Assembly: GCA_951406725.2 (NCBI GenBank)
Contig: OX597831.1
Span: 76,446,001-76,510,000, forward strand
Source of the DNA: Octopus vulgaris
Taxonomy: Eukaryota
Length of the DNA: 64,000 nt
Reading direction: 5' to 3'
A program made the translations under genes and the position numbers. Every line of letters begins with the position of its first letter. The stretch's first letter is position 1. Under the pieces are notes generated by a model that saw only the letters and a program-made list of their open reading frames with translations, had not been told where the DNA came from and did not search any database. Shown here piece after piece: positions 2,943 to 61,708 of the stretch.

Positions 2943-3176
2943 GATATCTATCTATCTATCTATCTATCTATCTATCTATCTATCTATCTATCTATATATA
3001 TATATATATATATATATATATATATATATATATAATTATAATTTAGGGTATCTAAGAGATGCCTCCACGCAGGAAATAGCAGTCAAAACTTGACTCTAAA
3101 GCCACATTAAATGTTCATACAGCCCCAGGAGAGAAGATAAAGAGACAAAATAAACTAGCAAAGAAATTACTGGATA

Positions 3177-3235
3177 ATTCCAGATCCCGGACTTCTGACT
3201 TTGCATAAGAAATACTTGGCCATCATCAGTGGAAT
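3177..3235 (-). ncRNA. Type I hammerhead ribozyme motif (GAAG variant) in a putative Penelope pseudo-LTR fragment
   Basis: Minus strand AUUCCA-CUGAUGA-UGGC...GUCA-GAAG-UCCGGGAUC-UGGAAU: 6-bp stem I, 4-bp stem II, short stem III, AUC triplet; A15.1 is G. Confidence 0.7.
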
Positions 3236-3369
3236 ACACTCAGATCTTATACTTATTTATATATATATATATGTATGTATGTATGCATGTATGTATGCAT
3301 ATGTATGTATGCATGTATGTATGTATGCATGTATGTATGTATGCATATGTATGTATATACATACATATA

Positions 3370-3501
3370 CCGGATTAAGTACATAAATGTGAAACAAGGT
3401 AGAAAAAAGTGTACTCAAATACCAGAGGTAGAGTAATATGCTTTATTTAAAAGCAGCAGAAAAATAACAAAAGCAGTTACTCAGAGTTTCACGCTGCCGT
3501 T
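3370..3501 (-). mobile_element. Pseudo-LTR-like fragment with the 3' half of a hammerhead, truncated at (TA)n
   Basis: Minus strand ACG-GCAG-CGU-GAAAC-UCUGA-GUA; the CUGANGA part is replaced by (TA)n. Confidence 0.45.
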
Positions 3502-3730
3502 ATATATATATATATATATATATATATATATATATATATATATATATATATATATATATATATATATATATATATATATATATATATATATAACGACCCC
3601 TGCAAGAATATTAAGTGCAAACACTTCTGCACAAAGTCTGATATTTAGTTGATATTGTTTGGGTGTGCAAATTAGATCGACCTAACAAGGTGCCTCAATT
3701 TCAGTACTTAGCTCAACTGAATCTTAATCA

Positions 3731-3995
3731 TAGGTGCAGGAGTGGCTGTGTGCTAAGAAGCTTATTAGCCTTCTACATGGTTCCGGTTTCGGTCCCACTG
3801 TATTGCACCTTTACCATATGTCTTCTGTTATAGAGTCGGGCCGACCCAAAGCCTTGTGAGTGGATTTGGTAGGCGGAAACTGGAAGAAGCCTGTCGTTTA
3901 TATATATATATATATATGTGTGTGTGTGTGTGTGTGTGTGTGTGTGTGTGTGAGTGTGTCTGTGTTTGTCCCCCTTCCACCGCTTGACAACCGAT
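3731..3995 (+). mobile_element. SINE family A (tRNA-derived head, internal TA/TG microsatellite), partial
   Basis: Matches full copy at 40083-40471 (ggagtggctgtgtg..gtcccactg..gccttgtgagtggatttggtag). Confidence 0.85.
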
Positions 3996-3998
3996 ATT

Positions 3999-4210
3999 AG
4001 GCGGCGAGCTGGCAGAAACGTTAGCACGTTGGGCGAAATGCGTAGCCGTATTTCGTCTGCCGCTACGTTTTGCCTTTCATCCTTTCGGGGTCGATAAATT
4101 AAGTACCAGTTACCCACTGGGGTCGATATAATCGACTTAATCCGTTTTTCTGTCCTTGTTAGTCCTCTCTGTCCTTGTTACTACCCCTTGTGGGTAGTAA
4201 AGAAATAGAT
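3999..4210 (+). mobile_element. SINE family B (tRNA-derived, Meta-domain-like core)
   Basis: ggcggcgagctggcagaaacgttagcacg..gcctttcatcctttcggggtcgataaattaagtacc, repeated many times in the window. Confidence 0.85.
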
Positions 4211-4899
4211 ATTAGTATTTTACATTCCCGTAACTTAGCGGTTATATATATATATATACTACTACTACTACTACTACTACTACTACTACTACTGCTGCTG
4301 CTGCTGCTGTTACTGTTGTTGCTGCTACCTCTACTACACTGCTACTGCTGCTCTTCCTCTTCCTACAACTATTAGTAGTAGTAGCTGTTGTTGTTTTATA
4401 GTAGTAGTAGTAGTAGTAGTAGTAGTAGTAGTAGTAGTAGTAGTAGTAGTAGTAGTAGTAGTAGTAGTAGTAGTAGTAGTAGTAGTAGTAGTAGTAGTAG
4501 TAGTCAATAAAGCTCTGTACATCCATATATCATTGAGCGCCACCACCACCGGCACCTCCACCATTCCAAGATCCACAACTACTGACTTACCATATCTTTG
4601 TTGTTCCTCACACCACCACCGCTACACACATACGCACACACACACACACGCACGCACACACGCACACACATACACACACATGCACACTCATCTCCACCGC
4701 CGAGGCCACCACCACTACCACCACATTTAAGTGACCATTAAAAGTTCAATCTCAAAGCGTTCCACACCCACCGACCCACCCACCTACCCACCCCTACCCC
4801 ACCCACACCATCAAGATTTCCATTTGCCCAACGTCACCGACATCTCCGTCGGTTGAAGTTTACCATTAACTATCTCCGTCATCACCATCTGTCCAATAT

Positions 4900-58289: not shown

Positions 58290-58510
58290 AAGGGTCAGCG
58301 TGTACAGAATCGTTGTACTGACGCCTTTCCTGTGCAGCCCCAAGGGGTAGATTGCTTTGCGCATGCTTTTCGAGCACTTCAACCACCGCTGCCCACCCGG
58401 CATCTTTAACATCTATTGGAGTGACTTCATTAACAACAATGACGTCACCAGCGAAGAGATCATTTGATTAAAGATGCAATGTTGCTGGACAAGAGTAAGC
58501 TTCCAGAATG
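58290..58510 (+). mobile_element. Old RTE-like RT C-terminal fragment
   Basis: VSVYRIVVLT..FEHFNHRC..IFNIYWSDFINN, comparable to the 20.2-kb copy. Confidence 0.55.
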
Positions 58511-58687
58511 AACTTTTTAGCATTGTTACATGTTCTCGTGCTGTCTAGAGGTCGCTGTCAGCGGAATTTGAACTCAAAATCCCAAACAACGCAATTAAGT
58601 AGGGGGTGGTGGGATGGGGCAAAATGAGTAATTTCTAATACCTTGTTATATTTTTTCTACTTGTTAAAATCTCTATGCTGCAAGCAT

Positions 58688-59030
58688 TACTACCCTGCAC
58701 GTGTAAGCAGGAGCAGGGTATTGCAGTCGCTCGTCTTCGTCTGTTTGTGTGTTTGCAAAATTACTGGAAAACGGCTAAACGAATTTTCACCAAATTTGAC
58801 AGAAATACTTATTGGGTCAATAGCTCGAACTCATTTAAATTTGGTTTGATTATTTTCAAAATTAGCGGACAGGTGACTCAAAATGTGTTTTTCTCTTTGT
58901 TACAAATGCATAAACGATAAGCAAGGGAAATAACTCTTGATATCATTTTATTGAAATATGAATTCGTCTAAGAATATATTTATTAAATTTTATTTTATTT
59001 TATTTTATCCTTGTGTGCACCCAGGGTATA
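58688..59030 (+). mobile_element. Helentron-derived (HINE/DINE-like) non-autonomous element, approximate
   Basis: 5' inverted repeat taccctgc..gcagggta, gtctgtttgt repeats, gaattttcaccaaattt motif; similar start at 63661-63720 (tacctccg..cggaggta). Confidence 0.5.
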
Positions 59031-59456
59031 CATCGCCCCTCCGATACCAATTTTTTTTTCATTTTGTAATGTTTAATCATCTGTGAAAGTAAAAGTCGGT
59101 CAAAATAGCTGTTGTTGTTGTTGTTGTTGAAGATGAGAGGGTTTGAAACAGTCGAGTGTCAGGTGCTTTTCTTTCAAGAAATGTGTCCTTGAATTTGACA
59201 CGATTTTAATTGAGGTTGCTAATGAATTCCACCTCAAATTTTCCCACAATAATGTCGAATTTGATCATTTTCAATTTTCAAAAGAAAAAAAATAATTATC
59301 TCTAAAATCGTACAAAATAACTAATGACTAATTTCAGACATTTCTTCTTTTTAACTGCATGGTTAGTAAATATAACGGAAGGAAACTCATTCCAGCAAAT
59401 CGTGAAGGAGCCATAGAGAATAGTTTGTGTTTAGTTAAGTTTAATAGCATGTCATC

Positions 59457-59739
59457 CAATTGCGGACTGGGTCTAAAAATATTGGTTGCCAGGAGGCTAA
59501 GGGGGCCCACCCGCAACTACAATGCTATCATTTCATTTTTTTTCTTTTTTTGGTTAAAAGTATTCTTTTCAACTGTCTACAAACACAGCCAGTGAATTCT
59601 TCAAGGAGTGAATAAAAAATTCTCAAACTTGAGGGGATGGACCCCTTAGATACTAACATGGGCCCCCATATATGGATTCTAATGGCGCAGGGGCCCACTT
59701 GCCATCGCACAAGCTGGCAACCTGGCAAGTCCGTCACTG
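59457..59739. mobile_element. Possible hAT-like MITE
   Basis: caattgcggact.. and ..agtccgtcactg imperfect ends with internal gggccc motifs. Confidence 0.4.
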
Positions 59740-60173
59740 ATATCATCTGCCATTTTTCCAAGATCCTCTTTCATTATTTGACGAAGACATTTTAACCTTT
59801 TGTTGCATTTCTGACTTTCTGGTTGTTAATGATGGATATTCATGCGCATTATTTGTTCTAAACATAATTCTAGAGAAATAAATAAGCAAATTTACCTCAT
59901 CTTGGCTTACTCAATTTTTCCCAGCTAAATTTGTCTTGTGCGCTCAAAAAGAACGGAGATAATTTTCCGAAATACTGTTCTGAATATGTGATATTATTTT
60001 TAATGCATTTAGAAAACGTCATTCGCTTAAATGATATTGTTTTTGTAAGGCAGTCAACATTTATCATTGTTTTGTATACCTCAAAGTCAAAAATGCCGCA
60101 AATACTATTCATTTGTCTCCCACCCTTACAGAAACATTTCTATTCACGGAGAGGCGGAACGAAAAAGAGCAGT

Positions 60174-60206
60174 TTTGACGTTTCGAGCATAGCTCGTCGT
60201 CAGAAA
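60174..60206 (-). ncRNA. Minimal hammerhead, diverged relative of the 5.8-kb family
   Basis: UUU-CUGACGA-C-GAGC-UAU-GCUC-GAAAC-GUC-AAA. Confidence 0.7.
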
Positions 60207-61708
60207 GGGAAATGGAAAAATCCAGAGAAGGAAAAATATCACGTGTGTGGTTACATGGCATATATATATATATATATATATATATATATATATATATATA
60301 TATATATATATATATATATATATATAAGCCATGTACACACACACACATATATACACACACACACAGAAAGAAAGAAAGAAAGAAAAACGAAGAGAGAGAG
60401 AGAAAGAAAAAGAGAAAGAAAGAAAGAAAGAAAGAAAGAAAGAAAGAAAGAAAGAAAGAAAGAAAGAAAGAAAGAAAAAATATTCTCTAGCTCCGTAGTT
60501 GCCTCTTGTGAGATTTTAAGATGTTATACCACTGAGGGCGACTTGCCTTTCATCTTTTCGGTTTGTCAATAATGGAAAGTACCAGTCATGTACTCGGATC
60601 ACTGAAATCGACCTCGGAACACGTGCGCATGTGCCAAGGCTAAAACTTATTTCAAAGAGTGATTTTGAGTAGAAAATTTTATTAAATTTCATCAAAAACT
60701 TTAATTATATGAAGCACCATGTTTGGTTAATTAAAAATGAGGAAGGGGTGGTTTATGGGAGGGAGGGCGGGACTGGGTATTAATTTTTGTTAAAATATTG
60801 AAAAAAATTAAACAGTCTGACTGAAACTTGACAATGCAACCACACAAACACACACAATTACGCACATACAAGTATATACACAGACGAACATACACATACA
60901 TGTATGTGTATGAGTAAATGTTTGTGTATATACATATACGTGTGTGTGAGTGTGCTGTGTGTATCTGTGACTTCAAATATGGATGTGTGTGTATGTATTC
61001 TTGTATGTATATATATGTGTGTATATGTGTGTGTGTGTGAGAGTGTGTATCTGTGCGTGTTTGTGTGTGTGTATCTGTGTCTGAGTGAGAGTGTGTGTGC
61101 GTATTTATTTGTATGCATATATATATATATATTTATTTATATATATTTATATATATGTATATGTGTGTGTGAGAGTGAGTATCTGTGCGTGCTTGTGTGT
61201 GTGCGTATGTATTTGTTTGTATATATATATATATATATTTATATATATATATATTTATATATATGTATATGTGTGTGTGAGTGTGTGTGCGAGTGTGTGC
61301 GTGTGTGCACAGTTGTGTGTCCATCATAAAAATTGTCAATTTATTAGTAGCTTCTCTCCTTCTTCCTCCTCCCCATCTCCCTCTCTCCGACTACTCCCCA
61401 CCTTCACTCTTTTCCTCTCCCCCCTCGCCCTGCCTCCTCGTCCCCCTCTCTCTCTCATCTATATTTACCAATTATAATGATCCCTTCGCCGTCCATTGTT
61501 AAACAGTTGTGTGACAGACACCTGAACATCACACGGATATGACCACTCCACTTCAAAGATCGATGTTATTGGTATTGTTAGTGACATTGTACTTGTTATT
61601 ATTATTATAATTATTGTTGTTGTTGTTGTCGTTGTTCATTGGTGGGGCTTAGTAGTTAAGGAGATTTGTTGTTTTTGTTATTATTATCATTATTATTTAT
61701 CATAATTA

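What the first reader, a model, noticed from the sequence alone, without database searches (positions are those of the whole stretch)
3030..60260. Microsatellites act as landing sites for many distinct ribozyme-bearing mini-elements
Seen: at least eight different 120-450-bp non-coding modules with intact or decayed hammerhead cores (about 3.2, 3.4, 5.8/6.7/41.8/60.2, 6.3, 15.4/41.1, 32.0/56.4, 32.6/38.1, 34.9, 42.4, 49.6 kb). Almost all are bounded by (TA)n, (CA)n or (GATA)n, and some sit inside the internal microsatellite of SINE A. Established: Penelope-like elements carry hammerheads in their pseudo-LTRs and often leave inverted truncated copies. Inference: a large population of solo pseudo-LTRs or retrozyme-like RNAs mobilised by PLE RT/GIY-YIG with microsatellite targeting, which could also cut host pre-mRNA when in sense orientation.
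Basis: partly seen in the sequence, partly recalled or inferred. Interest (0 to 1): 0.7.

Follow-up and report, generated by a model that had tools for sequence, protein, structure and literature searches.

The report
Penelope retroelement ends in TA repeats
Most of these short islands between TA repeats really do carry hammerhead-ribozyme motifs, but they are likely the left-behind end pieces of Penelope-like jumping genes, a kind already described with this motif and this TA-repeat preference in octopus, so the finding is real but largely ordinary.

Summary
Of 16 listed sites, 11 hold a type I hammerhead or a truncated half, one (49.6) is borderline, and four (32.0, 56.4, 34.9, 42.4) fail. 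An intact one at 31.4 kb was missed. Perfect-core motifs number 5, against at most 1 in 200 shuffles. Eleven of 13 hammerhead loci abut TA-type tracts at both ends, against 6 of 40 SINE ends.

The link to Penelope-like elements is shown. The 31.4 hammerhead lies 376 nt downstream of a Hydra-clade endonuclease remnant on the same strand. 41 of 60 Hydra-type loci from metagenome contigs have a sense hammerhead just after the ORF, and a model built from them ranks 15.4, 32.6, 31.4 and 38.1 first. Fixed 3' ends, variable 5' ends and head-to-head pairs fit truncated insertions. Craig 2021 already lists an octopus Hydra family with (TA)n targeting and a hammerhead.

No tandem retrozyme array, expression, cleavage or host gene was shown. 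Two points remain open: a very abundant ~200-bp family with near-fixed 5' ends, and one mirrored 85-nt microsatellite flank suggesting repeats travel with the element.

The parts
275..2944 (-). 5'-truncated, decayed Hydra-clade Penelope-like element: RT core/thumb, CxCX5C linker and C-terminal GIY-YIG (ORF remnant about 1103-2941). TA tract at the 3' end, (GATA)n at the 5' end. No sense hammerhead found in its 3' part.
3035..3257 (-). Terminal fragment with type I hammerhead (core at 3229; GAAG instead of GAAA), TA tracts on both sides. Its 3' region resembles the 38.3 kb module.
3370..3500 (-). Fragment truncated inside the ribozyme. Only the second half is left, with a Hydra-type stem III.
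   Evidence: E 3, model positions 32-43
5753..5940 (+). Family H1 copy. Minimal hammerhead (core 5822, extra base after A9, CG stem III). Stem II is broken by two changes absent from the family majority.
5961..6556 (+). Family H2 fragment with intact hammerhead 6269-6354 (7-bp stem II, long loop). An 18-bp inverted piece sits at its start.
6621..6826 (-). Family H1 copy, core 6751 with C at position 4.
15111..15683 (+). SINE A copy whose internal microsatellite holds the 15.4 insert.
15347..15546 (.). Head-to-head pair of Hydra-type hammerheads (15428-15480 minus, 15475-15527 plus). One arm is longer at the 3' end.
   Evidence: E 1.5e-6 each
23700..23934 (-). TA-flanked module without hammerhead, inside SINE A. 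Related to 25574-25907, 28456-28719 and 38321-38441.
31201..31903 (-). 3' end of a Hydra-clade element: endonuclease remnant 31774-31902, intact hammerhead 31334-31405, and a 3'-terminal 120 bp that repeats 31652-31782 (77%).
32004..32197 (+). TA/GATA-flanked module related to 56246-56542. Half core only, with no GAAA in hammerhead position; not a supported hammerhead.
32320..32870 (.). Head-to-head pair 32420-32762 (hammerhead 32596-32659 plus; 32526-32587 minus lacks stem I 5' strand). An irregular 85-nt TA/CA tract is mirrored on both flanks.
33045..33269 (-). Second Hydra-type endonuclease remnant, ending in a TA tract.
34823..34992 (-). Insert in the internal microsatellite of a SINE A copy. 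Hammerhead not supported.
38052..38252 (+). Copy of the 32.6 family. Hammerhead 38086-38150 with C at position 4; pure (TA)n flanks.
   Evidence: E 0.005
41117..41241 (+). Copy of the 15.4 family truncated at the first core base.
41739..41953 (+). Family H1 copy, core 41824 with C at position 4.
42175..42503 (+). TA-flanked module whose 3' part resembles 3.4. At most a remnant of the second half of a hammerhead; not supported.
49474..49792 (+). Module with both core halves (49571 and about 49632) but mismatched stems. Borderline decayed hammerhead.
52774..52889 (+). Weak extra candidate hammerhead (C at position 4), about 110 nt before a microsatellite.
   Evidence: (E 0.3)
60170..60257 (-). 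Diverged H1 relative. Intact minimal core at 60203, same 5' start, TA tract on the 5' side only.

Best explanation
The modules are short hammerhead-bearing sequences set in TA-type repeats, and they are likely the terminal (pseudo-LTR / 3' end) pieces of several Penelope-like retroelement families, copied in by the elements' own endonuclease and reverse transcriptase and mostly cut short at the 5' side. Inferred steps, in order: (1) the GIY-YIG domain cuts in or at a (TA)n tract; (2) reverse transcription starts at a fixed site about 120-280 nt downstream of the hammerhead, which gives each family its constant 3' end; (3) synthesis stops early, so that only the hammerhead region, half of it, or less is left; (4) priming from both cut strands would give the head-to-head pairs. 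Four groups (3.4, 15.4/41.1, 31.4, 32.6/38.1) are of Hydra type, and probably also 3.2 and 6.3. H1 (5.8/6.7/41.8/60.2) carries the minimal hammerhead known from other metazoan Penelope-like elements; its near-fixed 5' end would fit a complete solo pseudo-LTR or a non-autonomous derivative. After insertion the ribozymes appear to decay neutrally, so most copies are probably inert passengers.
For: SHOWN HERE. (a) The Hydra endonuclease remnant is 376 nt upstream of the intact 31.4 hammerhead, same strand, and ends in TA. (b) 41 of 60 Hydra-type loci with >=200 nt after the ORF have a sense hammerhead 77-533 nt after it, and 0 of 60 an antisense one; 18 of 78 loci were left out for too little 3' sequence or no ORF end. 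(c) Their stem III types, and the T.T pair at the base of stem II, recur in 3.4, 15.4, 31.4 and 32.6. (d) A covariance model from 16 of those loci ranks 15.4 (twice), 32.6, 31.4 and 38.1 as the only hits with E<0.01 in the window. (e) Core-to-3'-tract distance is constant within families (119/131/130; 127/120; 161/160/160), while 5' ends vary down to inside the ribozyme. (f) 3 of 11 SINE A copies carry an insert in the internal microsatellite. (g) H1 against 60.2: 28/33 identity in the hammerhead, 36/56 and 40/90 in the flanks; among the three close H1 copies the hammerhead is no better kept than the flanks.

PUBLISHED. Hydra elements carry canonical hammerheads and almost all insert in (TA)n (PMC8557442 section 11), including Hydra-1_Obim of Octopus bimaculoides with its hammerhead at 2403 of 2507. 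Solo motifs and opposite-strand pairs 100-700 bp apart were ascribed to truncated elements (PMC4209133). Both-strand cleavage and fixed internal RT starts were shown in vitro for a Poseidon element (PMC11167929).
Against: Only one module (31.4) is physically joined to ORF sequence. No whole genome is held, so the others are linked by ribozyme type only. The large Hydra remnant at 275-2944 has no sense hammerhead; its best hit is antisense and matched by 4 of 60 shuffles. The Hydra model misses 6.3 and scores 3.2 weakly (E 0.5). No parent is known for H1, and its four copies start within about 15 nt of one another, which random truncation does not predict. Only 11 of the 41 outside loci show a (TA)5+ tract after the hammerhead (one of them 2.4 kb away), and 21 of 78 have one at all. 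Rfam does not recognise any motif. The mirrored microsatellite flank at 32.6 is not explained by a fixed internal start.
Confidence: 0.82

Rival explanations
1. Some families, above all H1, are discrete non-autonomous elements (SINE-like solo pseudo-LTRs or monomers shed by retrozyme arrays elsewhere in the genome) that borrow Penelope-like proteins and may pass through circular RNA.
For: Four H1-like copies share a start point and three share an end. H1 is very abundant: 3 close copies in 64 kb, and 23,154 contigs of one run laid on the H1+H2 stretch with far more depth on H1 (the tool warns that depth is no copy number). 31.2-31.9 is about 1.3 units of a 455-bp repeat. Monomers of vertebrate retrozymes are dispersed genome-wide and are argued to derive from pseudo-LTRs (bioRxiv 10.64898/2026.07.22.740005).
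Against: No head-to-tail array with two hammerheads in the window. Loose ends before 5751 suggest some copies run further 5', though agreement is only 0.52. Two of three close H1 copies share a core change yet exist as separate insertions.
Confidence: 0.25
2. The microsatellites are partly cargo, not only landing sites: read-through transcripts carry the donor's TA/CA flank, so each insertion enlarges or seeds tracts.
For: Both arms at 32.6 end in the same irregular 85-nt tract (alignment score 172 of 174; best of 50 other tracts 103), whereas the 38.1 copy has plain (TA)n. Two of the three filled SINE A sites hold more repeat than the 22-84 nt of the eight empty ones.
Against: There is one clear case only. 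A mirrored mixed-microsatellite block with no element lies at 36096-36742, so DNA fold-back repair can make such mirrors. Slippage alone can lengthen tracts. In vitro the Poseidon RT starts mainly at internal sites not homologous to the target.
Confidence: 0.25
3. The motifs and their microsatellite flanks are chance in an AT-rich, repeat-rich sequence.
For: 29% of the window is tandem repeat. Four listed sites do fail. Rfam finds none.
Against: 5 against a maximum of 1 in 200 shuffles; hits by an independently trained model; SINE-end control 6 of 40.
Confidence: 0.02

Closest known systems
Hydra clade of C-terminal EN+ Penelope-like elements, including Hydra-1_Obim (Craig et al. 2021, PMC8557442; section 11, passages and supplement searches seen)
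   Same: CxCX5C linker, C-terminal GIY-YIG, canonical type I hammerhead shortly before the 3' end, (TA)n insertion, inverted truncated copies with one longer arm, present in octopus.
   Different: The window's families are other lineages. Hydra-1_Obim's listed hammerhead differs, and 6 of 6 module motifs were absent from the supplement, while the 6 hit only unrelated sequence; line breaks can hide matches. Their density (13-14 loci in 64 kb) is not discussed in the passages seen.
Minimal type I hammerheads of metazoan Penelope-like pseudo-LTRs (Cervera and de la Pena 2014, PMC4209133; parts 1-2 of 4 read)
   Same: H1 has the extra base after A9, the G10.1-C11.1 pair and the palindromic 15.2-16.2. 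Mostly solo motifs and opposite-strand pairs, as here.
   Different: H1's parent element is unknown. Its apparent abundance would exceed the 2,000-9,000 motifs per genome quoted there.
Non-LTR retrozymes (Cervera and de la Pena 2020, PMC7229834, passages; Li et al. 2026, bioRxiv 10.64898/2026.07.22.740005, part 1 of 5 and passages)
   Same: Non-coding units of 200-400 bp with one type I hammerhead; argued to derive from pseudo-LTRs; dispersed monomers occur.
   Different: Retrozymes are defined by tandem units, each with a hammerhead, and by circular RNA. No such array is in the window and no RNA was shown.

Membership tests
Hydra-clade PLE | RT followed by C-terminal GIY-YIG in one short ORF | tested here: met
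   Remnant 1103-2941(-): profile hits in order RT, linker, EN; GIY-YIG PF01541 E 4.7e-5
Hydra-clade PLE | CxCX5C linker motif | tested here: met
   Present at the start of the 1472-1161 hit; in 119 of 122 homologues
Hydra-clade PLE | RWK and DKT motifs in the N-terminal part | not testable with these tools
   Window remnants are 5'-truncated; homologues have RWK in 99 of 122 and DKT in 80 of 122
Hydra-clade PLE | No CCHH motif in the endonuclease | not tested
   Remnants are decayed; not scored
Hydra-clade PLE | Canonical type I hammerhead in sense after the ORF | tested here: met
   Met for 31.4 and for 41 of 60 outside loci; not found behind the 275-2944 remnant
Hydra-clade PLE | Insertion into (TA)n | tested here: met
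   11 of 13 loci; 3 of 11 SINE A internal tracts filled
Hydra-clade PLE | Physical link of each module to a Hydra ORF | tested here: inconclusive
   Shown for 31.4 only; no genome held
Minimal PLE hammerhead (H1) | Extra base between A9 and 10.1, G10.1-C11.1, palindromic 15.2-16.2 | tested here: met
Minimal PLE hammerhead (H1) | Occurs in the pseudo-LTR of a full element | not testable with these tools
   No genome; the metagenome pattern scan found 0 matches
Minimal PLE hammerhead (H1) | Cleaves as a dimer, not as a monomer | not testable with these tools
   Needs an in vitro assay
Non-LTR retrozyme | Head-to-tail tandem units, each with a hammerhead | tested here: not met
   Self-comparison of the window shows none; 31.2-31.8 is a partial repeat with one hammerhead. 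The rest of the genome was not seen.
Non-LTR retrozyme | Expressed as circular monomer RNA | not testable with these tools
   No run on record as RNA and no raw RNA reads were listed

The most novel reading that the evidence does not exclude
In octopus, Penelope-like elements and microsatellites feed each other. The elements insert into TA tracts, and they also copy the neighbouring tract along (read-through, primed from both strands), so they breed their own targets. A roughly 200-bp non-coding hammerhead element (H1) rides this cycle as a SINE-like parasite with on the order of 10^5 copies. That would explain both the microsatellite richness of the genome and a hammerhead density of about one per 4-5 kb.
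Probability: 0.2. Interest if true: 0.6.

Novelty: new member of a known kind. Interest (0 to 1): 0.25.

Why it matters
The finding is mainly an annotation gain: these islands should be labelled as Penelope-like ends, with several octopus families not found in the published set. If the density holds genome-wide, octopus would be unusually rich in hammerhead motifs, which would allow a well-powered test of whether intronic sense-strand copies are selected against. If microsatellite tracts are co-transposed, it would offer a mechanism for microsatellite-rich cephalopod genomes. Neither point is shown here.

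Tried and rejected
- Whole genome: none held, so no genome-wide linking, copy counts or intron strand test.
- Rfam: 0 at gathering. The E-value scan of the whole window was swamped by microsatellite-like miRNA families, and only the best 150 of 490 rows were shown. Three sub-stretches gave no hammerhead at E<=10.
- The repeat finder was swamped by microsatellites; it was replaced by a masked self-comparison.
- H1 pattern in metagenome contigs: 0 matches.
- Sequencing runs: no RNA holder listed on record. 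The one raw DNA run laid only 10 reads and was unusable. No 'goes back' joint was among the 15 listed for the H1/H2 stretch, but the TA tract where it would lie was skipped, so this says nothing on circles. Contig depths along 31205-31898 peak at the hammerhead and again at 31565-31660 and are low on the ORF remnant, but the tool says they cannot rank parts, so they are not used as evidence. The 'goes back' joints there can come from the internal 120-bp repeat. The variant tables were cut (40 of 90 and 40 of 112 rows shown), so the family-majority base at core position 4 is unknown.
- 32.0/56.4 as type II or III hammerheads: rejected, because no stem closes between the cleavage site and the core. 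As Naiad 'half core' ends: not confirmed.
- DNA-level comparison of the window with the 78 outside loci returned no hit; the script stopped on the empty output.
- Host gene: 22 of 160 frames of >=95 aa were scanned with Pfam and none reached a curated cut-off.
- Literature searches for octopus hammerheads, for Penelope with microsatellite and transduction, and for non-autonomous Penelope in cephalopods listed nothing on H1-like elements or co-transposed microsatellites. Only listings were seen for most of these, and subscription papers are missing. The bioRxiv supplement and most of the PMC8557442 supplement were not seen and may bear on family identity.

Full report
SETTING. The window is animal DNA, 29% tandem repeat, full of tRNA-type SINEs and decayed LINE and mariner pieces. 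The best protein hit for its Penelope-like remnant is from Octopus sinensis (70% over 37% of the query), so I treat it as octopus-like. No whole genome is held.

ARE THE HAMMERHEADS REAL? A type I descriptor finds 5 perfect-core motifs, against a mean of 0.07 and a maximum of 1 in 200 locally shuffled windows. With C allowed at core position 4 it finds 9, against a maximum of 1. Module by module, 3.2, 6.3, 6.7, 15.4, 32.6, 38.1 and 41.8 beat all 60 own-shuffles. 5.8 has an intact core, and the two bases that break its stem II are absent from the family majority: 84-99% and 98-100% of contig depth in three runs carry the pairing base. 60.2 is a diverged relative with an intact core and a changed loop II. 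41.1 and 3.4 are cut off inside the ribozyme. 49.6 is borderline. 32.0, 56.4, 34.9 and 42.4 fail both the descriptor and the model below; 32.0/56.4 are a real repeat family but have no GAAA in hammerhead position. An intact motif at 31334-31405(-) was missed. Rfam recognises none of them, which counts against close likeness to its curated families but not against the motif.

ARE THEY IN MICROSATELLITES? Eleven of 13 loci touch a TA-type tract at both ends, against 6 of 40 SINE ends. Eleven of 13 lie in inter-tract segments of at most 650 bp, which hold 30% of non-repeat bases (P about 8e-5; copies are not independent, and ends were partly drawn at the tracts). The order of events is clear at three of eleven two-part SINE A copies, where an insert splits the SINE's own internal tract. 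One of the three inserts is the 15.4 hammerhead pair, one has no hammerhead, and one is the unsupported 34.9.

WHAT ARE THEY? The window holds a decayed Hydra-clade element at 275-2944(-), with RT, CxCX5C linker and C-terminal GIY-YIG, and two more endonuclease remnants at 31774-31902(-) and 33045-33269(-). The first of these runs straight into the 31.4 hammerhead 376 nt downstream and then into TA. To test the rest, I fetched 78 Hydra-type loci from metagenome contigs. Of 60 with enough 3' sequence, 41 have a sense hammerhead 77-533 nt after the ORF and none an antisense one; several of these loci are near-duplicates. Their stem III types and the frequent T.T pair at the base of stem II are those of 3.4, 15.4, 31.4 and 32.6, and Craig's table lists the same stem III for two Hydra families. 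A covariance model from 16 of them covaries strongly (0 of 500 shuffles reach its score, though the rows were chosen by the descriptor). It gives E<0.01 only for 15.4 (both arms), 32.6, 31.4 and 38.1; 41.1, 3.2, 3.4 and a new candidate at 52.8 score weakly; 6.3 is missed. H1 is of another type, the minimal hammerhead of PMC4209133. One minimal-like pattern occurs in the 78 loci, inside an ORF region.

HOW IT LIKELY WORKS. Within each family the distance from core to the 3' tract is fixed and the 5' end varies, down to two cuts inside the ribozyme. That is the footprint of target-primed reverse transcription from a fixed start with early termination (inference). Head-to-head pairs with one longer arm (15.4, 25.6) and the equal-armed pair at 32.6 match the published insertion structure (PMC8557442 passage). 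They also fit the both-strand cleavage and two internal start sites shown for an anole Poseidon element (PMC11167929 passages); applying this to Hydra elements is an inference. H1 differs in that its four copies begin within about 15 nt of one another. That fits either a complete solo pseudo-LTR, made when RT starts on the 5' repeat of a full transcript, or a non-autonomous derivative; I cannot separate these. It is abundant: three close copies in 64 kb, and summed contig depth of 1.8-6.5 million against about 30-70 for single contigs in the same run. Both point roughly to 10^4-10^5 copies, but the tool warns that such depth is no copy number. Between H1 and 60.2 the ribozyme is better kept than the flanks (28/33 against 36/56 and 40/90; the 3' flank may not be homologous). 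Among close copies it is not. So selection likely acted in the source elements, not in the inserted copies.

DO THEY CUT HOST RNA? This is untested. Against: single minimal motifs did not cleave in PMC4209133; hammerhead mutations did not stop insertion, and no RNA-seq ends mapped to the cut site, in PMC11167929; 4 of 14 motifs here have C at position 4, one has GAAG and one a broken stem II; head-to-head pairs would fold into long hairpins (inference); strands split 8+/7-; and no host gene was found in 22 of 160 frames scanned. For: a coral retrozyme monomer cleaves efficiently (PMC7229834 passage), and 15.4 can form stem III alone.

RESULTS THAT DO NOT FIT. The large Hydra remnant has no sense hammerhead. 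Only 11 of 41 outside loci show a TA tract after the hammerhead. At 32.6 an irregular 85-nt TA/CA tract is mirrored on both flanks (score 172 of 174; best of 50 other tracts 103), while the 38.1 copy has plain TA. This suggests either that flanking repeat travelled with the RNA or that fold-back repair acted; an element-free mirror at 36096-36742 shows the second is possible.

COMPARISON AND VERDICT. Hydra elements with canonical hammerheads and (TA)n insertion are published, with Hydra-1_Obim from Octopus bimaculoides in the supplement. Solo and opposite-strand motifs were ascribed to truncated elements in 2014. Retrozymes are argued to derive from pseudo-LTRs, but the tandem criterion is not met in this window. 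The 2026 O. vulgaris repeat annotation lists recently active Penelope-like families and does not mention ribozymes in its main text (PMC13282606 passages). Earlier notes of this scan reach the same reading; they are leads, not support, and I checked the Hydra-1_Obim pointer myself. Verdict: real, new family members of a known kind, interest 0.25.

Noticed in passing
window 23700-23934, 25574-25907, 28456-28719, 38321-38441: A further TA-flanked family without a retained hammerhead, sharing a 3' motif. 25574-25814 is a perfect 109-bp inverted pair with a longer right arm; probably more Penelope-like ends.
   Followed up: partly
window 6751, 41824, 38093, 52781: The same core change (C at position 4) occurs in 4 of 14 motifs from three families and in none of the 78 outside loci by a pattern search. 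Cause unknown.
   Followed up: partly
window 36096-36742 and 30757-31091: Mirrored blocks: a mixed microsatellite with a perfect 48-bp inverted segment and no element, and a TA-flanked module with an internal inverted segment.
   Followed up: partly
window 32004-32197, 56246-56542, 15078-15115: Family with a half hammerhead core closed by a stem but no GAAA. The 56.2-56.5 copy has about 25-bp inverted ends. It could be a Naiad-type 'half core' end or another RNA motif.
   Followed up: partly
window 31774-31902 and 33045-33269: Two endonuclease remnants are consecutive in the protein with about 7 residues of overlap. They may be one element split by the 32.0 and 32.6 inserts, i.e. nested insertion.
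   Followed up: partly
window 37473-38033, 55628-55892, 42030-42160, 3593-3724, 13938-14012 with 21867-21964: Other microsatellite-bounded unique islands with no hammerhead and no Hydra protein match. The last pair is tied to (GATA)n.
   Followed up: no
window 11438-12229(-), 18430-19400, 20171-20800, 9155-9451(-), 57011-57304(-): Decayed LINE C-terminal pieces and mariner transposase pieces. Family names are from recalled motifs, apart from the zf-RVT hit at 18430-19137.
   Followed up: no
window 3999-4214 within 3724-4241: A second SINE family inserted into the tail half of a SINE A copy.
   Followed up: no
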